A stretch of 20,000 nucleotides of DNA, taken from contig JADGIG010000002.1 in the NCBI GenBank assembly GCA_018985235.1, positions 60,034-80,033 on the forward strand. The letters are read 5' to 3'. A program made the translations under genes and the position numbers. Below the pieces are notes generated by a model. The model was not told the origin of the DNA and did not search any database. It was given only the letters and a program-made list of their open reading frames with translations. How positions within the stretch are numbered: the stretch's first letter is position 1; each line of letters opens with the position of its first letter. Of this stretch, positions 2,149 to 19,425 are shown in pieces. This DNA is from Sanchytrium tribonematis (taxonomy: Eukaryota).

Positions 2149-2949
2149 ATGATTCACTTTGAACACAATCAACACAACCTTACTAATTATTCTACCAATA
2201 GGTATGAAAGTGCCACGCTAAACGGTGATTTGATTTCGGATGACCTTTCATGTATTAGAGGACATGGCACATATCTCTCGGGATCTACTATAAAGTCTAA
2301 TTTGATGGGCCAAGTTGAGTCTGTTAATCGATTAGTGATCGTTCATCCATTAAACTCAAAATACAAAGGGAACACCGGTGATGTAGTTATTGGCAGGGTT
2401 GTTGAGATAGTACCAAAAAAGTGGCTATTGGACATTCAAAGTGATAATTTTGGACAACTTATGCTCACTTCTATTGGTTTACCTGATGGTGTTCAAAGGC
2501 GGAAAACAGAGGAAGATGAATTGCAAATGCGGAAGTATTTTACTGAATATGATGTCGTTATTGCTGAGGTACAGCAAATTAATTTCGATGGTACTATCAA
2601 TTTGCAAACTAGAAATGATAAATACGGTAAAGCCGATAACGGAGTTTTAGTCAAAGTACGACCTAGTCTTGTCAAAACTTGCCCCAGTCATTTTTTGGAG
2701 ATAGGATCAGAAACTAGAATTATTTTAGGAAAAAATGGTTATATTTGGATACAGGGAAATAATTTTCCGATTCAAGCGATGCTATTTAATATATTGGAGG
2801 CAATGAATATTGAGAACATATCCATTTCTGATCAATCGCTCCAGAGTGCAATTTCAATATGTAAAGTAAAAGCGGATCCTCTAAAATTTACTAAATCAAA
2901 AACAGGAAGAAAAGAACTTGCAGAGCAGCTTATCATATCAAATCAATAA
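2149..2949 (+). CDS. RRP4: Exosome cap subunit RRP4/EXOSC2
   Basis: Motifs IRGHGTY, VNRLVIVHPLNSKY.G.TGDVVIGRV, LPDGVQRRKTEEDELQMRKYF and ILGKNGYIWI. Confidence 0.93.
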   Translation: MIHFEHNQHNLTNYSTNRYESATLNGDLISDDLSCIRGHGTYLSGSTIKSNLMGQVESVNRLVIVHPLNSKYKGNTGDVVIGRVVEIVPKKWLLDIQSDNFGQLMLTSIGLPDGVQRRKTEEDELQMRKYFTEYDVVIAEVQQINFDGTINLQTRNDKYGKADNGVLVKVRPSLVKTCPSHFLEIGSETRIILGKNGYIWIQGNNFPIQAMLFNILEAMNIENISISDQSLQSAISICKVKADPLKFTKSKTGRKELAEQLIISNQ

Positions 2950-4264
2950 ACTCCTGCCTTATAGCCCTGAAATCTCTATGCAATAACTCTTTCAGCTTAC
3001 TCGAATCATCAATTCCTTCAATTATTTTCTTCGTGACATAAACTGGGGGAAGCTGATCTTGCTTGATTGACGGAGCATGTTCAATGAATTTTAATTGCTG
3101 CATTACATAAGTTTTGATAAGTTCTAATTCGCTTTCAGTATTTTCGTTTTTATAAAACCCATTCAATTTAGGAGTAATAACATGGTCAGGACCAAAAAAC
3201 CCTCTATAAGCACAATCGTCAGGTATAGACTGTGGCAATCTCGCATTGCATACGGTTGCGGTTTCATAAGCCCAACAACGTGCCACATTGCGGATGGTAT
3301 AACCACCACCACCTAACAAAATCATAGGAATGTTGAAAGACTTTATAAATTCAACGCATGCAGCATGCCCCTGGATGCTTAAATTGAATGGACCAAGTCT
3401 ATCAAGTCCAAGACTATCAGCACCTGCTTGAAGAACGACAGCACCTGGTTGAAATTGATTGATACAGGCTCTCATAACAGATTTAAACAGCCTGAGATAT
3501 TGCGAGTCAGTAATGCCTTGCTTCAGTGGCACATTTATGCTAAAATTCTTGCCTTCATTGAATCCGATTTCCTGCAAACTGCCTGTGCCGGGGAAAAAGT
3601 CAAATCCATCTGGCTGAACACCATATCGATGAAAACTAACAGTCATAACTCTGTCAGATGTATAAAATGCCTCCTGAACTCCATCGCCGTGATGAACATC
3701 AATATCGATATACAATACTCGTGGGTGAGATTTTAATAATTCTTGTATGGCTAAAACAATATCGTTTACGTAACAAAAGCCGGATGCGCTGGACCTATGT
3801 GAATGATGTAATCCGCCGCTCCAATTTACAGCAATGTCGCATTCTTTATTATTTATCAATTTTGCACTTAAAATCGAAGCACCAGAATATTCCTGGCAAT
3901 ACTCGTATACAGATTCAAATAATGGACAATCATTTGTGAGAGGAAGGTAATGATGATCTGGGTCCTCAGTCTTCTTTTGTAAAAATGAAATGTATTCTGG
4001 TGAATGAAAATTTGTTAGTTCCGCATAGCTAGCGATTGGGGCCTTGTAAACTGTCATTTCCTGATATAGGTGATAATTCATAACTAAATCATGAGTTAAA
4101 GCCAAGCGACTCGGTTTCATTGGGTGGTTTTCAGCATAATAATGAGTTCCGATTGTGTCACTGTACATGTAAGCAATATTTTTGTTTGAACCTAAATACT
4201 CAGTATGATTTTTATTTGAACGTACGGGCTCTAATTCTAATAATTGTTCTAGAGTAACTGACAT
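2933..4264 (-). CDS. Class I histone deacetylase, Hos2/HDAC3-like
   Basis: Motifs HPMKPSR, NWSGGLHH, ASGFCYVNDIV, RVLYIDIDVHHGDGVQEAFY, FFPGTG and GGGGYTIRNVARCWAYET. Catalytic residues appear intact. The subfamily call is by recall. Confidence 0.9.
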   Translation of the reverse strand: MSVTLEQLLELEPVRSNKNHTEYLGSNKNIAYMYSDTIGTHYYAENHPMKPSRLALTHDLVMNYHLYQEMTVYKAPIASYAELTNFHSPEYISFLQKKTEDPDHHYLPLTNDCPLFESVYEYCQEYSGASILSAKLINNKECDIAVNWSGGLHHSHRSSASGFCYVNDIVLAIQELLKSHPRVLYIDIDVHHGDGVQEAFYTSDRVMTVSFHRYGVQPDGFDFFPGTGSLQEIGFNEGKNFSINVPLKQGITDSQYLRLFKSVMRACINQFQPGAVVLQAGADSLGLDRLGPFNLSIQGHAACVEFIKSFNIPMILLGGGGYTIRNVARCWAYETATVCNARLPQSIPDDCAYRGFFGPDHVITPKLNGFYKNENTESELELIKTYVMQQLKFIEHAPSIKQDQLPPVYVTKKIIEGIDDSSKLKELLHRDFRAIRQEFIDLI

Positions 4265-4300: not shown

Positions 4301-7109
4301 TTATTTATTAGTATCTTTTTTAGCCAATTTAGCTGCAGTCACGCCTTGCTGGACGAAATATTTAGCCAGAAAAGTTGATTCCTCCATTTTTAGATTGCCA
4401 CAGGATTCAAAAAGTTTGGTGGCATTCTTTTGATGTTTGTATGCAAGTTTATAATCTTTCATTCTGTAATAATGGTTTGCCATTAAACTTTCAAAGTTAC
4501 CTAGAGATTCTGGATCTATGTATTCAGACTTAAATCGATCGAAGACTTCTGTGAATTTTTCTGGCTCGAGTAACTCTATTGCAGAGAGTAGAACATCCAA
4601 ATTGAAGAATACCTTGTATGTTGGAATGCTATAAAAATCACGTATTCTATGAATATGAGCGGCAATAATGGGGATTAATTGGGGGCTTGAATAAGTACTT
4701 AAACTAGCAACCGCTTCCTAAATTAAAATTAAATACATGGCAATCAAGTGCCTCTTGAGAAAATGGCCCGTTCACCATTTCAGTACAATAACTAACTTGT
4801 AGAATTTCACTAAATAGGTCCTTAACAGCAGTATCTTTAGAGCTATCAACGTTAAGATTTTGAATCTCTCGTAAAGTTTGCTCACATCGAATTTGGAGTG
4901 TCTCGCTGGAGTTCTCGCCGTATACAAAATGCATGGCACTTAACAAATCTTCTGACTTTAAAAGCTTTAATGATCCAACAGTATGGTTAGATGATTTTGT
5001 CAATGGTAGAAAACAAACAAAATCTTTCAATTCGAATTTAAACTCATTCTCTTCCATTTTTTGCAGTGCGAATTTTGACAATCGAATCCCAATAACTTCG
5101 CAAATACGTTTGACAAGCAAAATGTTTTGGCCAGTGCTACATTCAACCAAGTATTTTCGCCATTTTAGATCTTTAATGTCTAGAGTTGGTAACTCATTTA
5201 GTATGTCAATAATTATCTTTTTAGATTCTACAATAGAACGCCCAGAAGACTTCATAACGAAAAAAGATTTTACGCTTCTTGCAGCTATTTCAGTCTCCAA
5301 TAAAAGTATGAGTGCTACGACTCTGTCATAATTCATGTATGCAAGTGGAAGTTCCGGGATTTTGTATTTGAGTTTAGATTTTAGTAATTTATCTGAATTA
5401 TCAACAACAGATTTGTACAGAGAAACTATGTCAGCATTCAAATTGTTGGAGATTTTCAAATTGAGAAGAATATCTCTCAGTAAACCTATATATCTTACGT
5501 TAATTCCAAAACTATGCATAAAATCAACTAGTCTCGTACCTGATACGATCGGATCTGGTTTTAAAAGCAATTCCAATAGTAATGTAGGAATTACAATACT
5601 CTCAAGGTATTTAGAAATAATATCACAATTGTCTGAAAGATTATATTCCAAGTTTTTCGAGTAGCATTCTCGGAACGACTGTACAAGCTCATTTCGGAAA
5701 TACATGATATTGTGTGCAGGCACAGTATGAGCATTTGCATATCTTTGCGCAGAAAATGCATCCTCGGGCGTTAAGCGAATAATGTCAGATAAGTAAAATT
5801 TTGAATCAGAACATTTAGCAATTCTAGATTGTTTTAGAAAGACGGACTGAAAATTATCAGAATGTTGAATAAGATTAAATCCTAATTTCTTGGATAAATC
5901 AGAAGTCTCCAATTCATTCGAGTTGATAAATGAGTCGCATTCTTGATCTTTTTGAGAATTTCCATATACAACTTCAGATTCCAGCATCGCCTTAAAAGAA
6001 TTTCCAGCAATAGCTTGAACAAGGTAATGTTTGCCACCGTATTTTACGAGACATGCCATAGTCGTGCTAATTGAATCTATTCCCAAGCTTTCAAAAATGG
6101 AAATGGCTTCAATCTCCTTGTTTGCTAGTGAATTGACAGCAAGTATATTGTGGTAAGTATTATCATTATATTGTTCATACCAATCACCCACAGGTCCAAA
6201 AAAAAGATTATTCCATACATAAATGTACTTATCAGAGCTATCTTCCGGATTAATAGGAAGGATTCCACCTTGAATAATGGATAATACTCCAGAAACTGCC
6301 AAATCTTTAAATTTTTTTTGCAACATAGTGATGTTTTTATCAGCCTCAATACATTGTATCTCACTTGCGTCGTCTGATAAACCTGAAGTTCTAGAAAGTT
6401 GCATTTCCACATTAATGCTACCGAGACGAACGTCTTTTGCGAGACTTTCAAAATTAATTCCGGGATTTACAATATCTACACAATTGTACTTTTGAAATTC
6501 AATAAATGTATGTTCGATAAAATGAGAATCATCAAAACTAGCATCATAATGAGAAACGTCAAAATTTACACGCAGCAAATCTACCAGATTGCTGTACTTT
6601 GTATCTTTAAAGTAGAATCCATCTATCATCGAATAAATCTTGTTTCCCTTGAAAGTAAAAATAAAGAGAAGACCATCCGAAACATCTTTGAAGGATTTTT
6701 CATAGGATTCAATCTTAATTAATGCATCTTCAGAAGAATGTATCAGTTCGGAGGTACGCACTAAAGGAATGATATCCCCATGGGTCAACACCTCATTGAA
6801 GATACCCCCTCGTGGTTGCAAAACTTTTGACAATCTATTAATGTGAAGTTTCGCAGTAAATTCAGTATATTCCTTAATTTTGATTGTAAATCTGTACGGA
6901 AGCTGTAAGTCTTGCACTTTCGTATCCGGGTTTAAAACGCTATTATTATGCAGTAAATCAAATCCATTAGTTGTGTATTTCAGTAATAAATTACCGATAT
7001 AGTCATACAAAGTTTTAATAGTACAGCCATCTTTTCCATTAAGGGTAAATTTTTCATCGCCATCGCCAGTGAATTCAATTGGAAATGTGATTTGCGACTC
7101 CGATGTCAT
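4301..7109 (-). CDS. CLU1: Clustered mitochondria protein Clu1/CLUH (TIF31)-like, spliced join(7109..4737,4717..4301), 929 aa
   Basis: ILPINPEDSSDKYIYVWNNLFF and MHSFGINVRYIG resemble CLU-family motifs, and the C-terminus is TPR-like. Removing the 19-nt intron 4718..4736 fuses ORF 4704..7109 in frame with ORF 4301..4600, with no intervening stop. Confidence 0.8.
4718..4736 (-). other. 19-nt spliceosomal intron in CLU1 (phase 0)
   Basis: Sequence GTATTTAATTTTAATTTAG. The spliced reading is ...LDCH|EAVASLSTYSS...FFNLDVLL. Confidence 0.85.
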
Positions 7110-7150
7110 CTCCTAAAATTGGAAAATGAATCATTGTAGGCCAATATAAT

Positions 7151-8588
7151 ATGGAAATAAATGTGAATGTCATTGTAAGAGTGAGACCAGTTGAGAACGA
7201 GCAATGCATAGCTATAAATGAAAATACCATTACAGTGGATACTGCTAATAGTGAATCCTTTACATTTGACAAGGTTTTTGTGAATTCCACTCAATCAAAC
7301 TTATTTGAAGAAAGTGTACTAAAATCGTTTTTAGACAAAGCTATCGATGGTTATGCAGTCACTGTCTTTGCTTATGGGCAAACATCTTCTGGAAAATCAT
7401 TTACAATATCTGGAAATGAAGTCCCAGATGGAATAATTCCTAGAGCCTTAAATTATATCTTTACGGAATGCAGTAATAGAAAGAAAATTATTCGCGCTTC
7501 CTATTTGGAAATTTACAACGAGCAAGTACACGATTTACTAAATATGAATGGAAAAAATTTGCAAGTGAGGTGGAACAAGACAAGCGGTTTTTATGTCGAA
7601 AATTTATTTATAGTGCAGTGTGATCTGTATGATGATGCTCTTGCTGTTATGGAAGAAGGACTGAGAAATAGGAGAATTGCGGCTCATGCACTGAACGATA
7701 ACTCTTCTAGGAGCCACTCAATCATGAATATATATATTGAAACAGAAGAAGAAAGCAGTGATGGAATGGTGGTATCGAAACTCGGTAAAGTGAGCTTTGT
7801 GGACCTGGCCGGGAGTGAACGAGTAAAAGATACAAAAACTAAGGGAATTAATTTCTCAGAGACTTCCAATATAAATAGATCATTATTAACATTAAGCCAG
7901 TGTATATCAGCCCTAAGCGATCCAAAAAAGGTGCTTACTCACATTCCTTTTAGAGAGAGTCAATTAACAAAGCTTCTTATGGATTCATTAGGAGGAAATG
8001 GATTCACTTTAATGATTGCTTGCTTAAATCCAGCAAAAATGCATTTATATGAAACCTTGCAAACTTTGAGATATGCCAGCCGTGCTAAAATAATAAAAAA
8101 TAAGCCAAGAATTATAATAGATCCTCGAGAGGAAGTAATTTGTACTAATCTAGCTCATTTTAAAACTTAAGAAAGAAAATCACGATTTAAAAGCTTTATT
8201 GAGTGCTACAGAGAATGAAAATTTCCAAAATTTAGATCTCTCAAAAACTCATAAAACTATTTCATTGAGTTTTGATAAATTAATACGGGAGCTGGCGCAA
8301 TTGAAATACGAAAAGGAAGAGCTTGAGCGGGCAAAAGAGGTTTTGGGGTTTAGTAACCAGGTATTGATGCAGGAAAATGAGAAACTGAGACACTTCAAGG
8401 CTGCAAGTCTTTCTAAAAATTCTAAAAATGAAATACAAATTCATTCCGGTGAAACTAAATCAAAATCACTTGAAAGAAAGAATTCATCAACAAAACTTGA
8501 TGTTGTAAAACTAAATCAAGACTTGAGACACGAATTGGACTCGCTCGAACTTGAGATCCAAAAAATGAATAAAATTTCTATTTCCTAA
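7151..8588 (+). CDS. KIF12: Kinesin, KIF12/kinesin-16-like, spliced join(7151..8134,8154..8588), 472 aa
   Basis: P-loop GQTSSGKS, plus SSRSH, VDLAGSER and HIPFRESQLT. VRWNKTSGFYVE resembles recalled KIF12 VRWNKTRGFYVE. The coiled-coil tail joins in frame after intron removal. Confidence 0.85.
8135..8153 (+). other. 19-nt spliceosomal intron in kinesin (phase 0)
   Basis: Sequence GTAATTTGTACTAATCTAG with a TACTAAT branch site. The spliced reading DPREE|LILKLKKENHDLKALL is a typical neck coiled coil and is in frame with ORF 8199..8588. Confidence 0.92.
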
Positions 8589-8621
8589 TAAATTCTTGTC
8601 AAAATCTCAAACTCACATTGA

Positions 8622-9128
8622 ATGAAAAACAAAACGCAGGCCAAGCCCATTATCAACAGGGTCAATGCATTAATTGGACCAAATAATGAATGTCCAATAT
8701 GTGCCAAATGTTTTTGTGACCAGTCAACTGCATTGAGACATTTAAAGCATGTTCATGCACCACCTATAAAATGTGATTATTGCCTTAAAAGCATTAAAGT
8801 TGGAGGAAGGCCAGATGTGTTAAGAAACCATTTGCTAAGATGCCCTCAATTTGTAAAGAAATTTCCAAACGATTCTTATGAACAAGCAAAAACTCAAGCG
8901 AAATCGATTTATGGTAGAATTAAAAAAAATAGAGACAAGGCCTTTCAACCGCAATCATTAGCGCATAGCGACTCTGGATATCTAGAGCTACCGGCTGAAT
9001 TTATCGTTATCGAGGGAACATACCAATATTCCGCCGAATTGGATTTATCGCTTGATTCCGATTCGTTCCCTACTCAATTGTTTCCTCCAGCGTGTGAATC
9101 TCAAGCTGACTATGATGTTTATCAATAA
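8622..9128 (+). CDS. Small zinc-finger protein (C2H2 plus C2HC-type finger) with acidic tail; probable transcription factor
   Basis: Fingers CPICAKCFCDQSTALRHLKHVH and CDYC...LRNHLLRC, followed by an acidic/aromatic C-terminus. Confidence 0.75.
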   Translation: MKNKTQAKPIINRVNALIGPNNECPICAKCFCDQSTALRHLKHVHAPPIKCDYCLKSIKVGGRPDVLRNHLLRCPQFVKKFPNDSYEQAKTQAKSIYGRIKKNRDKAFQPQSLAHSDSGYLELPAEFIVIEGTYQYSAELDLSLDSDSFPTQLFPPACESQADYDVYQ

Positions 9129-9200
9129 TAAATTCCTTTAATTTCGACTTACCATTCTTCAAAAGTTTTGACTAATAAATTGTTTAGAAGTTTCAGATGG

Positions 9201-10832
9201 ATGAAACCGCTCGAATTGAATGCTCTCAGACGAAGCGTCTATCAAATATCAAACAAAACCACAACTTCAGCAATATCTAGAATTTTGGAAGCCTTGACCA
9301 GATCTAAATATGACCTTGTTGATCGAACTCAATTAGCCGAAATCACGGCAACGAAAAGGCCAAATACATCCACTATAAATTGCTTTTTACATCTATCTGC
9401 AAAATCTGGTAATTTTTCACGACCGTTTAGACTTTACGAAGAGACTAAAAATCTGATCTCCTTAGAAACTTTAAGAGAGTTTGCAATTTTTGCTCAAAAA
9501 GTAAATGACCCAATTTATGTGTCAGAAGTAATAGAAACGTCAAAAAAGTTAGTGGTGGATCCTCTCAAAGTTAAAAATAATATAGGAGCCGCATTCAAAT
9601 ATATCATTGCTGGAAAATCTATTCTTATATGTCTGTTCTTTAATTTGCATTTTTTACCAACGCTAATTCTTCTTGCCGCAAACACAGCTATGCTATATTT
9701 TATTCGACCAGCTCAACGCGAAACTCTCAAAGCGATTACCAATTTAGAAACGAAATATTTTTTTCACCCATTCAATACATGGACAACCGATATGATTACA
9801 AACTATATCATTACTTTGAGAGCAGCTGAGCAAGTTCGAAATGACAGAATAGAAGACTTTGAATCGAAGTCTAGGATATCAACTTTAATTAACTCTAAAA
9901 CGATTCACGATAAATTCAAGTCGAAACAGTTTGAGAGTGTCATTGATTCTTATATTGGAAATGAAAAAACAACTCCATCAGCAGTTGCGAGTGTCATGAA
10001 TTCGTATTTTGAGACGGGCAAGCCTTTAGAAGCATTAAAGTTATACGAAGAAAACAGAGCTAATATTTTTAATACTCATATAAATAGAAAGAGATTTGTT
10101 CTTAACAACTTAATTAAATCTCTCGGATTCAGTGGATTTCCTCAGTATGCTGAATTTGTATTACTAAGTGAATTTCACAGATTGAATGTAAAGCCAACAT
10201 CGAGATCCTTGATAAAAGTTGTACAATCTCTTCAAAATTGTGACGATTCATATTCTAGATTCTGGCACAATTTGAAAAATTCAACTTCTGTTGATTCGAT
10301 TTATATTTCCGAAATATTTGGAATTTCTTACCACGATATTATGAACATTATCAAGAATCGCTGTGATCTTATAGAAACATTACCTGGGAGTTATAAGTCT
10401 GAAATTGTGGATCCACTTCGAGTCGCTTTTGCGTATTTTAGACAATTAGAAAAGTTTGATGCTATATCAGTCGGAGTTTTCATGACGTCGTGCATTATGA
10501 GCAAGCAGCACTACGCCACTGTGAGATTATTTAGTATGTTCCACCAAATTACAGAGATTGATTCATCCGAACTATACTTTTTGGATCCTTTCAGTGGAAA
10601 TCGCATTAATTTAGACATGTCGATATTTGAACCTCCCCAATTTAGCTTTTTTGATGAAATGCTACTTTTTGGAAAGTCTTCGATAATCAACCGCACCAGA
10701 TTTTATCCTCCTTCAGAAAGAATGATGAAAGTTGCCAGAAATGCACTAAGTGCATTGGGTTTGGCTTCTGACGATATAAATACACAATTTAGAATTAGAA
10801 GCGCCAACCTTATATCATTAGATCTACACTGA
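9201..10832 (+). CDS. Hypothetical protein with PPR-like helical repeats and a hydrophobic segment; possibly mitochondrial (543 aa from first ATG)
   Basis: PPR-like motifs PNTSTINCFLHLSAKSGNFSRPFRLYEE, VMNSYFETGKPLEALKLYEE and LNNLIKSLGFSG...NVKPTSRS. The N-terminus is basic and rich in S/T. The track start at 9168 is TTG; the first ATG is at 9201. Confidence 0.6.
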   Translation: MKPLELNALRRSVYQISNKTTTSAISRILEALTRSKYDLVDRTQLAEITATKRPNTSTINCFLHLSAKSGNFSRPFRLYEETKNLISLETLREFAIFAQKVNDPIYVSEVIETSKKLVVDPLKVKNNIGAAFKYIIAGKSILICLFFNLHFLPTLILLAANTAMLYFIRPAQRETLKAITNLETKYFFHPFNTWTTDMITNYIITLRAAEQVRNDRIEDFESKSRISTLINSKTIHDKFKSKQFESVIDSYIGNEKTTPSAVASVMNSYFETGKPLEALKLYEENRANIFNTHINRKRFVLNNLIKSLGFSGFPQYAEFVLLSEFHRLNVKPTSRSLIKVVQSLQNCDDSYSRFWHNLKNSTSVDSIYISEIFGISYHDIMNIIKNRCDLIETLPGSYKSEIVDPLRVAFAYFRQLEKFDAISVGVFMTSCIMSKQHYATVRLFSMFHQITEIDSSELYFLDPFSGNRINLDMSIFEPPQFSFFDEMLLFGKSSIINRTRFYPPSERMMKVARNALSALGLASDDINTQFRIRSANLISLDLH

Positions 10833-10861
10833 ATTTATTCTCATCACACGAATTTGGTAAA

Positions 10862-10890
10862 ATCTTATCGGCGACAAGATATCTTATCGG
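10862..10890. promoter_or_regulatory. Candidate GATA-site cluster (ATCTTATCGG twice, plus AAGATATCTT palindrome)
   Basis: 10-bp direct repeat at 10862..10871 and 10881..10890, each containing GATAAG on the minus strand. Palindrome at 10876..10885. The cluster lies about 60 bp upstream of ATG 10953. Confidence 0.35.
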
Positions 10891-10952
10891 GGTAATTAGT
10901 TCTGCGATCTAAGAGCAATAAATGGAGACTCACCTTCAATAATTCGCTTTCT

Positions 10953-12545
10953 ATGTCTTTTCAAGACTACTCTATATTTAAACGACTCTATTCCAGTGAA
11001 GATCACGTTGTTTATTTAGTAAAGAAAGAAAGTAAATTTTTGATTAGGAAGGATGTTTGCTCTGGGGCTACTAAAATTCCCAGTCATCCCCACATTCAAA
11101 ATTATATCCACAAACATGGAAACAAATACTACTTCGATCTACCACCTTCTAATGGCTTTAATTCATTGCAACGCAAACCTCAGATGATGATCAAAGTTTT
11201 GGTCGAATTATTTGGCGTCTTATATAGCATGGAACAAAAAAACACAAAGCATGGTCGGGTCACTTTAGAAAACATTAGAGTTAAGAATGGCAGCCTTTAT
11301 TTAATTAATTGCGCACTTGCAAGTTGTCCAAAGGAAAATGTCAAATCAGACATATCTCAATTCGGAGACTTATTGCAGCTTATATTCTTCGATCACTGTG
11401 GAAAAGATACCACATGTAGACCAAAGAGATTAAAAAAGTTTATAAAGAAGTGCCACATGAAAGAAGCCTTATTCGAAAATTTGAAACGAGAATTTCATTG
11501 CGTGTTTTCTTCGCAAACTTCTTTAAAACGCTGTCAATCCTTATTAAGAAGGTCAAATTTAGCTGGTTTGCCGCCAATTCAAGACGAAGCGATCTCTATA
11601 GCGAAAGACTTTCGACGTGCAAGTATGGGCGACATACATAGCATGACTAAGATCGGGGAATGCTACGCCACGGATAAAAGACAAAGCGGATGTTCTATAT
11701 ATTGGCTAAAAATGGCTGCTTGGAATGGTTGTTCTAAAGCATGTTTGGAGTTATGCAAAATATATATTAAAGGTCCAAAATCGTTGCAAAACTTTATCGC
11801 AGCGGAAGCGTTACTAAAAACACATCTTAACTCATACGAATCGCTTGAATTGTACGCCGAATTACAGATTGTTCGTCAGGATGGCAATATGGACCTGGCT
11901 CAGATGCTATTAAAAAGAAGTCTGGCAAAAGCAAGACCATCTGCTTACGTTCTAATGGGAAGAATATATCAATTGAAAAATATTCCAGAGAAGTCTACAT
12001 TGTTCTTTCAAAAAGCCGCTAACCTCGGTAACTGCGCTGGTCGATATTATTATAGTATCGATTTGGTGGAAGGCATTTTAATGAATAAAGACCTGGATAA
12101 GGCCAAAAATTTGTTACATAAAAATGACGAATTTCATCATCCCGAAAGTTTGCTGCTTTTAGGAAACGTACACGAAATGGAAGGAGAGTTTGCATCAGCT
12201 TATCTTTCTTATAAAAAAGGTGCGGCTCTCCAAGATTGCTCGTGCGCCATTGAGCTTGCCAAACTTCAAAGTGCTGGTAAAGGATGCGAAGAAAACAAGT
12301 CATTAGCTATTAAAACCCTAAGAAGCATTTCTTCAGAATGCCCTTATGCATATTTCAAATTGTATTTAATATATGAAAGTGTGAATGATATATTGAACGC
12401 GGATGAAGCATTGAAATTTGGAGCCTTGAAAGGTTGTGAGGAGTGCATTGAGAAAATGCATACCGGAAACTTAAATCGATTAGATTCGACTCCAACAAAA
12501 TGGAGAAGGTTGATGTCCATTTTGCCAAAAGTATTTTATAAGTAA
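10953..12545 (+). CDS. N-terminal degenerate protein-kinase (pseudokinase) domain fused to Sel1-like repeats
   Basis: Kinase-like order of motifs (DYSIFKRL, VVYLVK, HPHI, HGRVTLENI, LYLINCALA, KSDISQFG), but no HRD aspartate or DFG. Sel1-like repeats include YWLKMAAWNG, FFQKAANLGN and LQSAGKGCEENKSLA. Confidence 0.7.
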   Translation: MSFQDYSIFKRLYSSEDHVVYLVKKESKFLIRKDVCSGATKIPSHPHIQNYIHKHGNKYYFDLPPSNGFNSLQRKPQMMIKVLVELFGVLYSMEQKNTKHGRVTLENIRVKNGSLYLINCALASCPKENVKSDISQFGDLLQLIFFDHCGKDTTCRPKRLKKFIKKCHMKEALFENLKREFHCVFSSQTSLKRCQSLLRRSNLAGLPPIQDEAISIAKDFRRASMGDIHSMTKIGECYATDKRQSGCSIYWLKMAAWNGCSKACLELCKIYIKGPKSLQNFIAAEALLKTHLNSYESLELYAELQIVRQDGNMDLAQMLLKRSLAKARPSAYVLMGRIYQLKNIPEKSTLFFQKAANLGNCAGRYYYSIDLVEGILMNKDLDKAKNLLHKNDEFHHPESLLLLGNVHEMEGEFASAYLSYKKGAALQDCSCAIELAKLQSAGKGCEENKSLAIKTLRSISSECPYAYFKLYLIYESVNDILNADEALKFGALKGCEECIEKMHTGNLNRLDSTPTKWRRLMSILPKVFYK

Positions 12546-12546
12546 A

Positions 12547-12678
12547 TTAATTGTGGGATATCTCCTAAAGAAAAAGTATAAAATATAAAAAAGTAGAGTC
12601 AAACCTGAGATCGAATACATATTCATCAGCATCAGTACGTTAATCAATCTCTTTTGAATTTAATTTGGGATATCTCCT
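12547..12678. repeat. Imperfect ~20-bp direct repeat TTAATT(G)TGGGATATCTCCT bracketing the intergenic region
   Basis: Copies at 12547..12566 and 12660..12678. The exact 13-mer TGGGATATCTCCT is at 12554..12566 and 12666..12678. Confidence 0.8.
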
Positions 12679-12687
12679 TGATGCAAA

Positions 12688-13518
12688 ATGACAAACAAAT
12701 ACGTTTCTATTCGTCCACCACGAGAAGTGGGCTATCTTCCTATGGAGACATTTGTCATTGGAATAAGTGTGAAAAGAAATGTACAATCAGTTATCAATGC
12801 ATTGTCAAACTCAGAAGCAACACGTCAAAAATTTAGGCATTTAAAAGTTATTCGTCCTTTAAAGCTAAATGAAGAATTCTATGGTTTCGTGTGTGATGTT
12901 GAAGACTATTTTGCTATTCTTCTAGGGCAAGCGGTCCGCCTCGACAAAATTAAACTTACAGTTAATGAATTCATCATTCAATTTCTGCTCGTAAAATTGC
13001 CATCGTTACCACCATTATCTAGTATACAATATGACCGTGTTAAAAATCTGTGGCCAATACATTTTAAATGTAATTTGGACAAGTCGTACAAATTGTCAGA
13101 CTCCTCTTACATTACACAGCAAACTGAGCGAATCGTCAAATCCGGATTTACTTGCGCCATTATTAATCCGACATTATCTATTGAAATTGCTACTAACCAT
13201 ATTGCACCATTTGATTCTTCTCAAATTTTTGATCATCCAGTTATGACTCTTCTAGACTTATTAGCAATTGATGAATTGCGTTGTAATAACGATAAACGCT
13301 ATCTCGCAACAGACTGTGATTGTTTTATTAAATTCGAACCATGTGTCATGTGCGGAATGGCTCTTCTTCATTCCAGAATCAAAAGAATTTTTATTTTAAG
13401 AGGTAGCAGTACCTTGAGTGATTGTGGCCATGACAAAGCTTTTTCTCAATTTTACTTGCACTGCCAAAGTGATTTAAATCATAGATTTCTAGTTTATAAT
13501 GCTGATTGCTCACCCTAA
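12688..13518 (+). CDS. TAD3: tRNA-specific adenosine-34 deaminase non-catalytic subunit TAD3/ADAT3
   Basis: Motifs HLKVIR, WPIHF, pseudo-active site HPVM, YLATDCD...EPCVMCGMALLHSRIKRIF and LNHRFLVY. Confidence 0.9.
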   Translation: MTNKYVSIRPPREVGYLPMETFVIGISVKRNVQSVINALSNSEATRQKFRHLKVIRPLKLNEEFYGFVCDVEDYFAILLGQAVRLDKIKLTVNEFIIQFLLVKLPSLPPLSSIQYDRVKNLWPIHFKCNLDKSYKLSDSSYITQQTERIVKSGFTCAIINPTLSIEIATNHIAPFDSSQIFDHPVMTLLDLLAIDELRCNNDKRYLATDCDCFIKFEPCVMCGMALLHSRIKRIFILRGSSTLSDCGHDKAFSQFYLHCQSDLNHRFLVYNADCSP

Positions 13519-13562
13519 TCTACGGTTTGATTAAGAAATAAATAAGATTATTTTTCAAACTT

Positions 13563-13985
13563 ATGCTTCACAATTCCATCTCAATTAAAAACATATCTTC
13601 CCTAGGTAGGTGGTCCACTTCATCTGGAAAGAAAAAGACGCTGAATATGTTGCTAAATGCCAACGATGAATATTATCAATCTTGCTCGCCGAGTGCACCT
13701 CATACCATCTACGTAGATTTCGAAGCTGAAAAGTATGTCGATAGCGTAAAAATTAAACTTGATCTGGCCGACGAGACGTATTTACCGGATGAAATAGAAA
13801 TACTGGGTGGATCTCATTTGTCAATGGTCACAATTACGACGAAAAAACTTCCATCACCAGTTTTCGAAGCTTGGGTTATCTTTGATATAAATTATGACTT
13901 GTGCGCATTAGCTATACGTATCAATAGCGTCAAAAGTGGGGGGCAAGACGTCCGGCTGTCTCAGATTCAAATACTTGGATATTGA
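13563..13985 (+). CDS. APC10: APC/C subunit APC10/Doc1-like (DOC domain), divergent
   Basis: WSTSS.K, YYQS...PHTIYVDF, DETYLPDEIEI.GG and GGQDVRLSQIQILG follow the APC10 motif order. Confidence 0.75.
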   Translation: MLHNSISIKNISSLGRWSTSSGKKKTLNMLLNANDEYYQSCSPSAPHTIYVDFEAEKYVDSVKIKLDLADETYLPDEIEILGGSHLSMVTITTKKLPSPVFEAWVIFDINYDLCALAIRINSVKSGGQDVRLSQIQILGY

Positions 13986-14021
13986 ATTATTGCCACGATA
14001 AAATTAAAACTTTTTTGTAAC

Positions 14022-14450
14022 ATGATCTTGAGCATCTGGATTGTGAATAAAGCTGGCAGTTTAATCTATTCTAAAGACTATAATCCAAACAAACAGTCAA
14101 ATATACGCACTTTAACATCAAATGACGCTATTGTCTTGGCTTCAACATTGCATTCTTTGACAGCGATATCGAGCAGAGTCAGTCCAATCTTAGGCAGAGG
14201 AGTTCCTAGCCGGGGTTTGCGACAAATATTTACCACCTTGTTTACGATATATATACATACCACAATTACGGGCATAAAATTCATAGTATTGACAACACCG
14301 TCAAATAGTTCCATGGAATCGTTTTTTCTCAAATTGCATGAAGCCTATAGCGACTTTGTCGTTAAAAATGCATTTTACACACTTGAACATCCTATTAAAA
14401 ACCCTTTGTTTGACCAACAGTTAGACAACTTGCAAAAATTGGCAAACTGA
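14022..14450 (+). CDS. TRS23: TRAPP complex subunit TRS23/TRAPPC4 (sybindin family), short form
   Basis: Motifs IVNKAGSLIY, LTSND.IVLASTLHSL.AIS, TGIKFIV and YSDFVVKNAFYTLEHPIK..LFD. Confidence 0.9.
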   Translation: MILSIWIVNKAGSLIYSKDYNPNKQSNIRTLTSNDAIVLASTLHSLTAISSRVSPILGRGVPSRGLRQIFTTLFTIYIHTTITGIKFIVLTTPSNSSMESFFLKLHEAYSDFVVKNAFYTLEHPIKNPLFDQQLDNLQKLAN

Positions 14451-14475
14451 TAGATTCGTTTATTCGAAAATAAAT

Positions 14476-15463
14476 TTATTTTCGAGCAGCGTCGTAATTA
14501 TTTACAAACCACTCAATGCTGCTTCTTAAGGCAACATGAAAGTCCGTAAATTCAAACTCTGGGTATAATGTTTTCAATTTGTGATTGCTACTTGGTTTGC
14601 GATATTGTCCATCAGATTTAGATGTATCCCAAATAATGTCTTGTTTGTAACCCATGATAGATGCGATGCTTTCCGCCACCTCTTTTATAGGTATCTCTTC
14701 ATTCTCTGAAGGTGATAAGATGATTGGCTCTGTACTGTTGTACTCAAACATGACCCAAATAATAAGTTTAGCTAGATCCAAGCTATAAATAAATTGTCTT
14801 AATGGTGAACCAGATCCCGAAACAGTAAAACTTGTCCCTGTTTCTAAATAAAAGTAAGTTACGCTTGGCTATATAGCACTTATGGATCAAAGCTGGGATA
14901 ACATGCGCATTATCCAAGTTGTAGTTGTCGTGAGCACCAAAGATATTTGTAGGAATGACACTCGTAAAATTTAAGCCATACTGGTCCTTATACATTTGAT
15001 TGTATACATCAATCATTCGTTTCGCATATGCATATCCAAAATTACTGGGATGTGGAGGACCCAAATGTATTTTTTCTTCAGTTAAAGGATAATCTACTTT
15101 ATCAGGAAATATGCAAGTGCTTAAGCAACTTACTACCCTGCACTCATATTGAGCTGCGGTAGATAAGATATTGTCATTCATCAAATTGTTTTCATGTAAA
15201 AAGTCAGCCTTATATCTCATGTTTGCGAAGAGACCTCCGACTTTCGCAGCAAGATGCAGTACGTGTGTTGGTTTGTGTTCCTCGAAGTAATTCTGAACCT
15301 CTTGCAAATTAAGTAAATTGCAATCATTCGATGACGCAAAAATCCAGTCTCCTTTTATGTTGTCTTGCTTGACGACGCTTTGAACTGCTCTTCCCACAAG
15401 ACCTGTCGCTCCAGTTACTAGAATTTTTGGTTGTGAAGTCAAGTCGAACCTCTCAGCAAGCAT
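14476..15463 (-). CDS. GFUS: GDP-L-fucose synthase (GDP-4-keto-6-deoxymannose epimerase/reductase, FX/TSTA3 type), spliced join(15463..14863,14843..14476), 322 aa
   Basis: Motifs KILVTGATGLVG, HLAAKVGGLFAN, SCLSTCIFPDK and NFGYAYAKR. After splicing, GSGSPLRQFIYSLDLAKL and DGQYRKP follow. The start is ATG 15463 (MLAERF). Confidence 0.93.
14844..14862 (-). other. 19-nt spliceosomal intron in GDP-fucose synthase (phase 1)
   Basis: Sequence GTAACTTACTTTTATTTAG. The spliced reading is HKCYIAK-Q-TGTSFTVSGSGSPLRQFIYS. Confidence 0.92.
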
Positions 15464-15568
15464 CAAAATTTGAAACCTCCTGAAAATAAACGACAAAGCG
15501 TGATGTGTCAGATAAAGACGACGTCTAAGACGGATTGTAATAAATAGCAAACTTGGGCGAAGCTATTG

Positions 15569-16625
15569 ATGTTGAGTGAATCTAGCAAAGTGGCACTAAT
15601 TACTGGCATTAACGGTCAAGATGGAAGTTATCTCGCGGAATTGTTATTAGAAAAGGGCTACATGGTACATGGTATAATTAGAAAAGCCAGCATATTAAAT
15701 ACAGAACGTATAGATCATTTGTATGAGCATCCCAATTTAAAATTGCATTACGGAGATTTAACAGATGCCACGTCACTTTTGACCCTGTTAGCATCTATAA
15801 CACCAAATGAAGTATACAACTTGGGGGCTCAGAGTCATGTTAAGGTATCTTTTGAATTGCCAGCCTACACCGCCCAAGTAGATGGAATTGGAACACTCCA
15901 TATGCTAGAATGCATTTTGAAACTTGGCTTCCCATGTAAATTTTACCAAGCAAGTACTAGTGAGCTTTACGGAAAGGTTCAAGAAATACCTCAGAGTGAA
16001 ACAACTCCATTTTATCCACGGTCACCGTATTTTTGTCTAATTTAGATATGGTGTAGCGAAACTTTACGCTTATTGGATAACGGTGAATTATAGAGAACAG
16101 GGCTTGTTCGCATGTAATGGAATACTTTTTAATCACGAGTCCCCAAGGCGTGGAAGAACATTTGTAACACGTAAAATAACAAGGGCAGTCGCTGAAATCG
16201 TCAGCGGGCTTACTGATAAAATCGTTCTCGGAAATTTAGATGCTCGTAGAGACTGGGGCCACGCTAAAGACTATGTCGAAGGAATGTGGAGAATTTTACA
16301 GCAAGACGTTCCAGAGGACTACGTTCTTTCAACGGGAGAAGATCATTCTGTCCGTGAATTTGTGGAACTTGCTTTTTCATATGTCGGGATCGAAATCAAT
16401 TGGGAAGGCGAAGGGGTTGACGAAATTGGAAAAGACCGTAAAACAGGAAAGCTTTTGGTAGAAGTCAGCCCGAAATACTTTAGACCAACAGAAGTGGAGC
16501 AATTACTTGGCAATTGCTCTAAGGCTAAGAAAAATCTGGGCTGGACTCCCAGCTGCACATTTAAAGAATTAGTTGAAGAAATGGTGGAATCTGACTTGGC
16601 AGAAGTTAAAAAAGGATATAAATAA
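15569..16625 (+). CDS. GMD: GDP-mannose 4,6-dehydratase, spliced join(15569..16026,16046..16625), 345 aa
   Basis: Motifs [27 protein letters not shown] and [10 protein letters not shown]. Splicing restores the catalytic YxxxK in FYPRSPYGVAKLY. Further motifs are [22 protein letters not shown] and YFRPTEV. Confidence 0.95.
16027..16045 (+). other. 19-nt spliceosomal intron in GMD (phase 2)
   Basis: Sequence GTATTTTTGTCTAATTTAG. Removal yields the conserved [21 protein letters not shown]. Confidence 0.95.
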
Positions 16626-16634
16626 AGGCATGCT

Positions 16635-17513
16635 TTACTCTTCATCTGAAATTTTCTTAATCATTTGAAATGCCGCATTCAATTCTTCATCTAGACCAAA
16701 CATGGTCACAACTAGACTCTCATCCTTCAAGTACTCTTTCTCGAATTTCACCCCACTGTCGTAACCAATCTGTTTCAAATTAGAATCACGGTCTCCCAAT
16801 ACCTTACTTTGCATGCTCTTAGGTATTGTGATTTTTCTTCTGCTAGAAGCATTCTTGGATTTTGAAATTTTATCTTTGTCTGATAAGGTGGTTTTTGTTA
16901 CAGCACGATTCTCACTTATTTCATCCACATTCTTATTCTTACGTTTATCTTCCGATTTTTCACCCCTAGGAGATGTTCTATATAAAACGCCTTTATGGTC
17001 TACTAGCTTGCTAGGATCATAATAAATATTATTCACTGGAGAGTCTTTAATCCAGTCTAATATTTTGGTCAAAGCATAATGGATGTCATCTCCAATAATC
17101 AAAACCATTCTGTCTGTAGATTGTGGAAGAAGATCGTCAAAGCATGTAACTTTGATTCCATTTTCTCTTAATTCTTTCACGTTAGAGCCTTTTTTACCAA
17201 TAATTGTTCCTATCAAGAAATGTGATAGTAAAATTCTCAACAACATTTGGTTTTTTCTTATTTTCTCAGCAATAAAGGCACAACTTTTTGATAAATCTTC
17301 AGCTGGCCCGTTCAAAGAACAAATACGGTCATAGCAGCCCTCAATGTGTTCACTGATAGCAATTCTCACATCAAAATCAGCCCTAATTTTTTCAATCGTG
17401 CTGCCTTTAGATCCAATGATTATGCCTGCTTCCTTGTTATTGAGAAGCAATCGGATAGTGATATTTTTAGAAGTCATGTATTCAGTAGGAGATCTCAAAA
17501 AAGATTTGCACAT
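16635..17513 (-). CDS. Triple KH-domain RNA-binding protein (hnRNP K/PCBP/Hek2-like)
   Basis: KH1 IRLLL...GIIIGSKGSTI, KH2 LRILL...GTIIGKKGSNV and a degenerate KH3 KVLGDRDSNLKQI. An alternative start is ATG 17477 (MTSKN). Confidence 0.8.
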   Translation of the reverse strand: MCKSFLRSPTEYMTSKNITIRLLLNNKEAGIIIGSKGSTIEKIRADFDVRIAISEHIEGCYDRICSLNGPAEDLSKSCAFIAEKIRKNQMLLRILLSHFLIGTIIGKKGSNVKELRENGIKVTCFDDLLPQSTDRMVLIIGDDIHYALTKILDWIKDSPVNNIYYDPSKLVDHKGVLYRTSPRGEKSEDKRKNKNVDEISENRAVTKTTLSDKDKISKSKNASSRRKITIPKSMQSKVLGDRDSNLKQIGYDSGVKFEKEYLKDESLVVTMFGLDEELNAAFQMIKKISDEE

Positions 17514-17516
17514 TTA

Positions 17517-19425
17517 TTAAAGGCAGCTCCTAATAATTACATTGGTGATTGATTGGACGGTTTCCTTCGAAGTGTATATTCCGAATGAAATTCCTAGTTT
17601 ATAGCGTTCGTGGCAATTTAAATCCGGGGTCAAGATAACAAAATCATTGTCTTCGGCAGCTAAATAAAAAATCTCCTCAAATTTTTTAAATTTCAGCGCA
17701 ATATTTTGTAAATTTAATATCCGTGCAAGTTGCTTCATCAAATGCTCATAGAAGTTGATCAGGTTAAATTCTTTCCTGAACGTGTCCATGATGGCTCCTG
17801 GATTCACAGCAATCCAATATATTTGAGACATTGAAAACTTCGAGATACCCATTCCTTGACAATATTGCAGAAAATTATTGTTTGAAAATAATTTGTATAC
17901 ATAGCCCATACCTGTGGATTTCTTCTCTCGAACTAAAACTGCGCTTTTATCAAACTCCAAATTTTTGTGAAAATATAACTTCAAACTTTTTTCACCATCT
18001 AATTTATCACGGACCTGATCTAAATAGTTTTTGGAATGCTCTTCAACGAAAGTCTTGGATATCAAAAGAGGTATTTTTTGTTCACATCTAATTGTTACAG
18101 TCACTCCAACTGCGGGAGTGAAGCAGGGTAAACCCAGCTCCCTTCCGATGGTCTTCTTTAGACCTTCCATATTGCTTTTGGAACCATGAACGAGAACTAT
18201 GTTGGTGGCTCCACTTTGTTGGATCAATTCAAGGATACCTCTTGAATCTGAATGGGCACTATATGAAAGGTTTTCAACTCCCATTTTCACGTCAATTTCT
18301 TGCCCACGGTGTCTAACTTTTCGTTCCCCATTAAGTAAATACCAGCCAATTGTACCATTAACACAATAGCCTGGAAGAATGAGTAGATTTTTATAATCGT
18401 GAGCCCATCTTTCAAATAATCTAGCAGAAAATCCACTTGCTAGCCTAAGTTAGTCTTTATTACATTCCCGGAGTTGCAAAAACAACACAAGGTTCATTTG
18501 AATCCACATATTTGACGTCAAATTTCTTAACGTGATGAAAATCAAATGGGTTGCGAAATTGCTCTGAATCAAGGTTAACATTAGTCCAATTTAAAAAAAG
18601 CTTGTAATACTCATTGGCTTTCTCCATAATTTCTCCGCTGAAAAATATGGGGACATTTAGCCCGTGCTGTTGCCAGTACGACTCTAACATAACACATAGC
18701 TCTTGGGCTCTTCCAACTGCAAACGTAGGAATCAAAACCTTCCCTCCCTGTTGGACGCAAGTGTGAACTTTTTTTAGAAAGGATTGCTCTCGAGTTGCTC
18801 TGGGAGGTCGAGTATAGCAGCCATAGGTGGATTCAGTGATCAATACGTCTGGTTTAAGTCTTTCGATAGATGCCTGGCCCAAATGTCTATCTGCAGTCAT
18901 ATTAAAATCCCCAGTGTACACAACTCGTAATAAATCTACCTCAATATATGTGATAATTGCACCCAAGACGTGTCCTGCGTAATAACTTCTAATTTTAATG
19001 GAATCTGAAATTACAATATCTTGATTCAAATCAATCACTTGGACCTTACTCAGGCACTTCTCAATCATTGCCTCTGTATAATTGAATTTGCTTGTTTTCT
19101 CATTAAAAAACTTTCTGCAATCATTAAGTAGAATTCTACAAATGGCTTTTGTAGGTGCACTCATAAAAACGGGACCGCTGTATCCTAAAATTTCTGTGAA
19201 ATACGGCAAAGCACCACAATGATCAAGATGAAAATGGCTGATAATGACGCAATCCACACAGTTGTACATTTGATTGCCCAATAATTTAAAATCAGGAAAT
19301 TTTCTATGATCGTTATGTCCTGCATGTATACCACAATCAAGCAAAATTCTTTTGTTATTGATAGTTACGAGAATAGACGAACGTCCAACATCCATACCTG
19401 CGCCTAGAGGCAAAATCTTAATCAT
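17517..19425 (-). CDS. INTS11: Integrator subunit 11 / CPSF3L beta-CASP endonuclease, spliced join(19425..18464,18444..17517), 629 aa
   Basis: PLGAGMDVGRS and LLDCGIH...RKFPDF are INTS11-like rather than CPSF73-like. Further motifs are SHFHLDH, AGHVLG, YTGDFN and ESTYG. After splicing, FATPGML..G...LPGYCVNGTIG and SAHSD follow. Confidence 0.88.
18445..18463 (-). other. 19-nt spliceosomal intron in INTS11 (phase 2)
   Basis: Sequence GTAATAAAGACTAACTTAG with a GACTAAC branch site. The spliced reading is FATPGM-LASGFSARLFERWAHD. Confidence 0.93.

What the first reader, a model, noticed from the sequence alone, without database searches (positions are those of the whole stretch)
4718..18463. All five detectable introns are exactly 19 nt: a fixed-length, ultra-short spliceosomal intron system
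Seen in sequence: five split genes are each restored by removing a 19-nt GT-AG segment. They are CLU1 4718-4736 GTATTTAATTTTAATTTAG, kinesin 8135-8153 GTAATTTGTACTAATCTAG, GFUS 14844-14862 GTAACTTACTTTTATTTAG, GMD 16027-16045 GTATTTTTGTCTAATTTAG and INTS11 18445-18463 GTAATAAAGACTAACTTAG. They occur on both strands and in all three phases, and in GMD, GFUS and INTS11 they restore conserved motifs. Established knowledge: introns this short are known from few lineages, such as heterotrich ciliates (~15-16 nt), chlorarachniophyte nucleomorphs (~18-21 nt) and microsporidia (low 20s); typical fungal introns are much longer. Inference: invariant length points to a ruler-like, probably reduced spliceosome in an apparently opisthokont nuclear genome. 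Caveat: stop-free introns of 3n length (18 or 21 nt) would not break ORFs and would be missed here.
Basis: partly seen in the sequence, partly recalled or inferred. Interest (0 to 1): 0.92.

Follow-up and report, generated by a model that had tools for sequence, protein, structure and literature searches.

The report
Ultra-short introns in a sanchytrid fungus
Five genes of this algae-parasitic fungus are each interrupted by a 19-base segment that is likely an intron, and relatives appear to carry 19-21-base ones at three of the same sites, which would be shorter than any fungal introns in the papers I found, though no RNA data yet show the splicing.

Summary
All five 19-nt GT-AG segments are where stated. 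In four genes the 19-nt cut ranks first among all frame-restoring cuts against uninterrupted homologs; CLU1's exact junction is unproven, but two relatives break at the same codon. The organism is a sanchytrid fungus (INTS11 clade with Amoeboradix gromovi, 100/100). Every intron reads GTA..T.A(-6)..TAG with no G at +5, the layout of Stentor's 15-16-nt introns. Relatives share the kinesin, GFUS and CLU1 introns. Their read-through peptides point to 19, 19, probably 19, 20, 21 and 20 or 23 nt, so the range is narrow but not fixed at 19 across the group. The likely fixed distance is branch point to acceptor. A. gromovi keeps U1, U2AF and SF1 proteins, so a strongly reduced spliceosome is not supported; Slu7 and Prp18 were not found in its annotation table. 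No RNA run or whole genome was available. My searches found no paper on sanchytrid introns; the genome paper called ORFs without an intron model. The scan holds no earlier sanchytrid note, only notes on short introns in other organisms. Verdict: real, a new member of a known kind.

The parts
4718..4736 (-). 19-nt intron, phase 0, in CLU1 (gene 7109->4301); predicted branch A at 4723
   Evidence: relatives P0369 and P0370 break at the same codon; exact acceptor not ranked by homology
8135..8153 (+). 19-nt intron, phase 0, in a KIF12-like kinesin (gene 7151-8588); predicted branch A at 8148 in TACTAAT
   Evidence: 1st of 25 cuts; homologs read DPREE-LILKL or DPREE-LIVKL across the junction; shared with P0245 and P0246/P0364
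14844..14862 (-). 19-nt intron, phase 1, in GDP-L-fucose synthase (gene 15463->14476); predicted branch A at 14849
   Evidence: 1st of 44 cuts; shared with P0124, P0125, P0126/P0243
16027..16045 (+). 19-nt intron, phase 2, in GDP-mannose 4,6-dehydratase (gene 15569-16625), splitting the YPRSPYG motif; predicted branch A at 16040
   Evidence: 1st of 22 cuts; the two exons meet on solved GMD chains; relative P0366 is uninterrupted
18445..18463 (-). 19-nt intron, phase 2, in INTS11 (gene 19425->17517), splitting TPGML; predicted branch A at 18450 in CTAAC
   Evidence: 1st of 10 cuts; P0002, P0003 (A. gromovi) and P0004 are uninterrupted here
4301..7109 (-). CLU1 host gene, two exons
   Evidence: Pfam CLU and eIF3_p135
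7151..8588 (+). kinesin host gene, two exons
   Evidence: Pfam Kinesin; KIF12-named homologs
14476..15463 (-). GFUS host gene, two exons
15569..16625 (+). GMD host gene, two exons
17517..19425 (-). INTS11 host gene, two exons

Best explanation
The five 19-base segments are likely ordinary U2-type spliceosomal introns of a sanchytrid fungus that have shrunk close to the smallest spliceable size, with the acceptor predicted to be set by a fixed five-base step from the branch adenosine. Shown: each reads GTA(A/T) at the start, T at -8, A at -6 and YTAG at the end, is 87% A+T inside, has no G at +5 and no room for a pyrimidine tract. Inferred: the spliceosome defines the intron across its length, U2 pairs with the TACTAAC-like stretch, A14 forms a 14-nt lariat with a 5-nt tail, and the next AG is used, probably without needing Slu7/Prp18. 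Inferred: length is uniform because deletion bias pushes introns down to a floor, and the slack (19-21 nt among relatives) lies between donor and branch point. Inferred: unspliced copies carry early stops and would be cleared by nonsense-mediated decay.
For: Junction ranking 4 of 4. A(-6), T(-8) and no G(+5) in 5 of 5. Three of the five breaks recur at the same codon in relatives whose orthologous proteins are only 32-78% identical. Of 7 relative tails examined, 6 are long enough to read and all 6 allow T(-8), A(-6), YAG at 19-21 nt; about 4% of 4,000 random tails per phase do. In P0126 and P0245 a 19-nt cut allows the homolog residues after the junction (K-N-G-T; M-I-L-x-L-R). P0125 and P0246 end in L-T-stop, the reading of CTA-ACN-TAG, at 20 and 21 nt; 1 of 4,000 random tails per phase does. 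No G at +5 is possible in 7 of 7 relative tails. A. gromovi has Prp8, Brr2, Snu114, SF3B1, U2AF, SF1, U1-70K and Upf1. Stentor has the same -6 branch A and 5-nt tail at both 15 and 16 nt and no Slu7 or Prp18 hit (PMC9505925 passages). Slu7 is described as unnecessary at branch-to-acceptor distances of 9 nt or fewer (PMC10158995 passage).
Against: No spliced transcript has been seen. The branch point is assigned from sequence only; GFUS has a weak one (TTTTAT). Lengths in relatives come from back-translated peptides, not DNA: P0124 also allows 13 or 23 nt, P0370 allows 20 or 23, P0369 stops at codon 3 and says nothing, and for P0125 and P0246 a longer intron with an internal stop is not excluded. 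The spliceosome inventory is from a relative's automatic annotation of ORFs called without introns, so missing Slu7/Prp18 may be split or divergent genes. Only 20 kb of this genome could be examined. The CLU1 acceptor is not fixed by homology.
Confidence: 0.8

Rival explanations
1. A true whole-intron ruler: in this species every intron is exactly 19 nt because the spliceosome measures donor-to-acceptor distance.
For: 5 of 5 are 19 nt. The strict motif gave no hit at 14-18, 20 or 21 nt. No hidden in-frame intron showed in the aligned parts of HDAC, RRP4, PNO1, SPAG6 or INTS11. Mikrocytos has 217 of 224 introns at one length (PMC10245619). Both readable introns of one relative (P0126, P0245) also fit 19 nt.
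Against: Another relative cannot have 19 nt at either shared site, and its two best fits differ (20 and 21 nt). 5 of 5 allows a true share as low as 55%. The tightly bounded systems I read about have two or more lengths (15/16, 16/17, 18-21).
Confidence: 0.12
2. The introns are real but poorly spliced, as in microsporidia, so that most transcripts retain them and are degraded or truncated; retention could be regulatory.
For: Short E. cuniculi introns splice at under 20% (PMC6349667 passage); Mikrocytos 16- and 17-nt introns at 63% and 37%. Donors here lack G at +5.
Against: The introns sit mid-gene (44-85% along the coding sequence) in conserved enzymes with intact second exons, unlike the start-proximal microsporidian introns. 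This reading can coexist with the best explanation.
Confidence: 0.25
3. Not introns: assembly or amplification errors, or pseudogene frameshifts.
For: Only one DNA run holds the stretch and it may be the window's source.
Against: Five insertions of one length with shared signals; the same breaks in three or more other organisms; precise absence in relatives at GMD and INTS11; no indel in the contigs of X1.
Confidence: 0.02
4. Removal by a non-spliceosomal route (tRNA-type or Ire1-type endonuclease, DNA-level excision, ribosomal bypass).
For: No direct observation of the splicing route.
Against: GT..AG ends with a branch-like A at a fixed place in all five; no Rfam match in the window; a relative encodes the spliceosome core.
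Confidence: 0.02

Closest known systems
Heterotrich ciliate introns (Stentor coeruleus, 15-16 nt; PMC9505925, passages read)
   Same: GUA start, AU-rich, branch A six bases from the end with a 5-nt tail, length variation before the branch point, U2AF and SF1 kept, no Slu7 or Prp18 hit.
   Different: 19-21 nt rather than 15-16 (14-nt against 10-11-nt lariat); a clearer CTAAY branch motif in three of five; a fungus; no RNA support here.
Mikrocytid introns (Mikrocytos mackini, 16-17 nt; PMC10245619, section 7 read)
   Same: Parasite with a reduced gene set; narrow length range; similar sequences among introns.
   Different: Longer; found in metabolic enzyme genes (none in Mikrocytos); the relative's spliceosome keeps far more than the 17-19 proteins found there, including U1 proteins.
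Chlorarachniophyte nucleomorph introns (18-21 nt; passages in PMC10245619 and PMC2483917)
   Same: Nearly the same length range, 19 nt typical.
   Different: A main nucleus, not a remnant endosymbiont nucleus; about 0.26 introns per kb in this window against more than 800 introns in about 300 genes.
Microsporidian introns (E. cuniculi 23-52 nt, CTAAYTT next to the AG; PMC2784321, PMC2483917, passages)
   Same: Holomycotan parasite; a CTAAYTT-type branch motif at the 3' end.
   Different: Shorter and narrower; donor lacks the GTAAGT consensus; mid-gene positions in non-ribosomal genes; separate lineage (sanchytrids are sister to Blastocladiomycota, PMC8371127 section 6).
Myxobolid and dicyemid introns (lowest median 22 nt; PMC13644364, main text read)
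   Same: Opisthokont parasites, donor reduced to GTa, U2AF kept.
   Different: Broader lengths; there the putative branch A moves away from the AG as introns lengthen, here it appears fixed at -6.

Membership tests
U2-type spliceosomal intron | GT..AG ends whose removal restores the homologous protein exactly | tested here: met
   4 of 4 rankable genes; CLU1 frame restored but junction unranked
U2-type spliceosomal intron | Branch-point adenosine in a YTRAY-like motif near the 3' end | tested here: met
   A at -6 and T at -8 in 5 of 5; sequence only, no lariat
U2-type spliceosomal intron | Removal from the transcript | not testable with these tools
   no RNA holder listed
U2-type spliceosomal intron | A major spliceosome in the organism | tested here: inconclusive
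   no genome held for the window; core proteins listed for the relative A. gromovi; snRNAs not examined
Ultra-short, narrow-range intron systems (heterotrichs, mikrocytids, chlorarachniophyte nucleomorphs) | Introns of about 21 nt or less | tested here: met
   5 of 5 in the window; 19-21 nt possible in 6 of 6 readable relative tails
Ultra-short, narrow-range intron systems (heterotrichs, mikrocytids, chlorarachniophyte nucleomorphs) | Narrow range across the whole genome, no long tail | not testable with these tools
   only 20 kb available
   19 nt excluded at the shared donor for P0125 and P0246; untested within this species beyond five introns
Strongly reduced spliceosome (microsporidia, mikrocytids, Cyanidioschyzon) | Loss of U1 proteins, U2AF/SF1 and most non-core factors | tested here: not met
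   in the relative A. gromovi only: U1-70K, U1A/U2B'', Prp40, U2AF65/35, SF1 present; no hit for Slu7, Prp18, U1C, Smu1, Yju2; KEGG and KOG numbers used as search terms were recalled
Sanchytriomycota | Clade with a named sanchytrid in a protein tree | tested here: met
   INTS11 clade with A. gromovi 100/100 among 21 rows; 82% identity against 58% or less for other named taxa; kinesin best named hits are Blastocladiomycota, although the quick kinesin tree did not group them

The most novel reading that the evidence does not exclude
Sanchytrid fungi have independently arrived at the Stentor solution: all their introns are 19-21 nt with a species-specific mode, the acceptor is set purely by a five-base step from the branch A, the donor has lost G+5, and Slu7/Prp18 are gone while U1, U2AF and SF1 remain. 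These would be the shortest introns in Fungi, still being gained or lost (the GMD and INTS11 introns are absent from all relatives seen), and unannotated in the phylum's published proteomes.
Probability: 0.4. Interest if true: 0.75.

Novelty: new member of a known kind. Interest (0 to 1): 0.62.

Why it matters
It would add a fungal lineage to the few with introns near the size floor, below the 23 nt listed for E. cuniculi and the 22-nt medians called the shortest in animals. A fungus with a 14-nt lariat and a largely complete spliceosome gives a third independent test, beside heterotrichs and mikrocytids, of what sets the minimum intron and of whether a short branch-to-acceptor step lets Slu7 and Prp18 go. 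Closely related species with 19, 20 and 21 nt at the same site show where the slack lies. There is also a practical point: 5 of 17 genes in this window are split, the five first-exon fragments are held as truncated proteins in a public collection, and the sanchytrid genome paper called ORFs with TransDecoder, so gene counts and gene-loss claims for this phylum may need re-checking.

Tried and rejected
No whole genome is held for the window, so no genome-wide histogram. No RNA holder listed. The one metagenome scan found 13 INTS11 loci, none closer than 55%, so no DNA of a sanchytrid relative; 10 of these 13 show the TPG motif and none is interrupted there, which says little about ancestry because they may be transcripts or intron-poor. 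Hidden in-frame introns: the 21-nt candidate in HDAC (3445-3465) aligns without a gap to HDAC1; HDAC's six-residue insertion has no 18-nt GT..AG; two 20-nt motif hits (8353-8372, 13778-13797) lie inside open frames and were set aside; a 21-nt GTG..TAATTTAG candidate (10594-10614) in an ORF without homologs at hand stays untested. A profile test of CLU1 exon 2 timed out and was replaced by a single-sequence test with weak results. Rfam gave no match in the window. The careful kinesin tree did not finish; the quick tree groups the window with P0245 and P0246 (100) but leaves their wider place open. Literature: searches for sanchytrid or Amoeboradix with intron, spliceosome or gene model found no paper describing their introns; in PMC8371127 and PMC10459994 the word intron occurs only in the reference list. 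Subscription journals are not searched; supplement file 2 of PMC8371127 was unreadable and the second species' sheet of file 4 is cut after its first rows.
Full report
Observation. The five segments lie at the stated coordinates, are 19 nt long and run GT..AG; removing each restores one reading frame. To avoid arguing in a circle I listed every GT/GC..AG excision of 10-150 nt that restores the frame and scored the products against uninterrupted homologs. The 19-nt cut came first of 25 (kinesin), 44 (GFUS), 22 (GMD) and 10 (INTS11). It restores DPREE-LILKL in the kinesin, as in Paraphelidium and nearly so in Catenaria and Blastocladiella, YPRSPYG in GMD and TPGML in INTS11. CLU1 is the weakest case: its second exon is too divergent to fix the acceptor, but two relatives end at the same codon with the same V-F read-through. 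Contigs of the one DNA run show no indel at any site, though that run may be the source.

Organism. The window is about 96% coding, with 17 genes and 35.6% G+C. INTS11 is 82% identical to the Amoeboradix gromovi protein and 78-83% to two unnamed proteins, against 58% or less for other named taxa; the four form a clade at 100/100. So this is a sanchytrid, a small phylum of algal parasites with 10-11 Mb genomes, sister to Blastocladiomycota (PMC8371127, section 6). I did not determine the species.

Anatomy. All five start GTA(A/T), have T at -8, A at -6 and end YTAG; none has G at +5; the inner 15 bases are 13% G+C. The kinesin intron holds TACTAAT and the INTS11 intron CTAAC, close to the fungal branch consensus (PMC2483917 passages). 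This predicts a branch at base 14, a 14-nt lariat and a 5-nt tail with no pyrimidine tract. Density is 5 introns in about 19 kb of coding span, about 0.26 per kb, against 1.30 for Allomyces and 0.01 for microsporidia (PMC8476143 passage).

Relatives. No DNA of a relative could be fetched, but ORFs called straight from DNA run into an intron and record it as a peptide tail. Three GFUS, two kinesin and two CLU1 relatives break at the window's codon (P0243 and P0364 are near-copies of P0126 and P0246 and are counted once). Back-translation of the 7 tails gives: P0126 19 nt, after which the homolog residues K-N-G-T are allowed; P0245 19 nt, allowing M-I-L-x-L-R; P0124 19 nt (13 or 23 also possible); P0125 20 nt; P0246 21 nt; P0370 20 nt (23 if the donor is a codon earlier); P0369 uninformative. 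P0125 and P0246 both end L-T-stop, the reading of CTA-ACN-TAG, and cannot be 19 nt at the shared donor; a longer intron with an inner stop is not excluded. Six of six readable tails allow the -8/-6/YAG pattern at 19-21 nt, where about 4% of random tails do. Equal contig lengths suggest that P0002, P0125 and P0364 come from one organism and P0004, P0126/P0243, P0245 and P0366 from another; this grouping is inferred. The INTS11 intron is absent from 3 of 3 relatives and the GMD intron from the 1 relative seen, so introns are still being lost or gained.

Hidden lengths. The strict motif has no hit at 14-18, 20 or 21 nt; the relaxed one has none at 18, two at 20 inside open frames, and one at 21 that aligns as coding sequence. 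Alignments of HDAC, SPAG6, RRP4, PNO1 and INTS11 show one insertion of six residues, in HDAC, without an 18-nt GT..AG. One 21-nt candidate in an unassigned ORF stays open. Five of five bounds the 19-nt share only at 55% or more.

Machinery. No genome is held for the window. The A. gromovi sheet of the genome paper's annotation table lists Prp8, Brr2, Snu114, SF3B1, a second SF3b subunit, U2AF65, U2AF35, SF1/BBP, U1-70K, U1A/U2B'', Prp40, Prp17, Prp22, Cwc22, Cwc25, Isy1 and Upf1. Slu7, Prp18, U1C, Smu1 and Yju2 gave no hit (search numbers recalled). These absences are weak, since the table rests on ORFs called without introns. They are still suggestive: Slu7 is described as unnecessary when branch and acceptor lie 9 nt or less apart (PMC10158995 passage), and Stentor, with the same -6 branch, has no Slu7 or Prp18 hit (PMC9505925 passages).

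Mechanism. Most likely these are U2-type introns defined across the intron, with the acceptor set by the fixed step from the branch A and total length squeezed between deletion bias and a minimum donor-to-branch span, the model proposed for mikrocytids (PMC10245619 section 7). Sequence features and shared positions are shown; splicing, branch position, efficiency and decay of unspliced RNA are inferred.

Comparison and novelty. Narrow ultra-short systems are known from heterotrich ciliates (15-16 nt), mikrocytids (16-17) and chlorarachniophyte nucleomorphs (18-21); microsporidia are listed from 23 nt and myxozoans at a 22-nt median. The kind is therefore known. I found no description of sanchytrid introns (searches; fungal intron-size searches); subscription journals were not covered. 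Papers seen: PMC8371127 outline, sections 6 and 18, passages and searches of its supplements (file 2 unreadable, second sheet of file 4 cut); PMC13644364 main text; PMC10245619 section 7 and passages; passages only of PMC2483917, PMC6349667, PMC10158995, PMC9505925, PMC11069148, PMC8476143, PMC2784321 and PMC10459994. The scan's own notes hold nothing on this genome, on look-alike DNA or on sanchytrids.

Verdict. Observation confirmed; interpretation partly supported. A real, apparently unreported ultra-short intron system in a fungal phylum, narrow rather than fixed in length across the group, with a spliceosome that looks largely complete in the one relative checked. Interest 0.62.

Noticed in passing
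window 614-2131 +: SPAG6/PF16 ortholog (E 5e-20 to Chlamydomonas PF16), a central-pair flagellar protein (role recalled), in a group described as having a non-motile pseudocilium; Pfam gave no family.
   Followed up: partly
window 14476-16625: GFUS and GMD, the two GDP-fucose pathway enzymes, lie head to head 105 bases apart; equal contig lengths suggest they stay near INTS11 in at least one relative.
   Followed up: partly
window 12545-12678: A 22-nt direct repeat brackets a 142-base intergenic stretch, and other contigs of run X1 join here with loose ends, pointing to a small element repeated in the genome; no Rfam match.
   Followed up: partly
window 10594-10614 +: A 21-nt in-frame GTG..TAATTTAG stretch in an unassigned 544-aa ORF; could be a hidden 3n intron or chance.
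   Followed up: no
window 10820-10884 and 11138-11249: Second alleles with 10 or more differences each at about half depth in run X1: heterozygosity or mixed strains.
   Followed up: no
window 2933-2949 and 16626-17516: Extreme compaction: RRP4 and HDAC overlap by 17 bases at their 3' ends; GMD, the KH-domain gene and INTS11 are 9 and 3 bases apart.
   Followed up: no
window 3563-3637 -: HDAC carries a six-residue insertion relative to human HDAC1 after SFHRYG; it is not an 18-nt intron.
   Followed up: yes
PMC8371127 supplement file 4, A. gromovi sheet: SF1/BBP and Snu114 each appear as two ORFs on one contig, as expected if unannotated introns split them.
   Followed up: no
window 8135-8146 and P0245: The kinesin intron's read-through begins V-I-C-T in both organisms, whose motor domains are 76% identical, so the intron sequence itself appears conserved.
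   Followed up: partly
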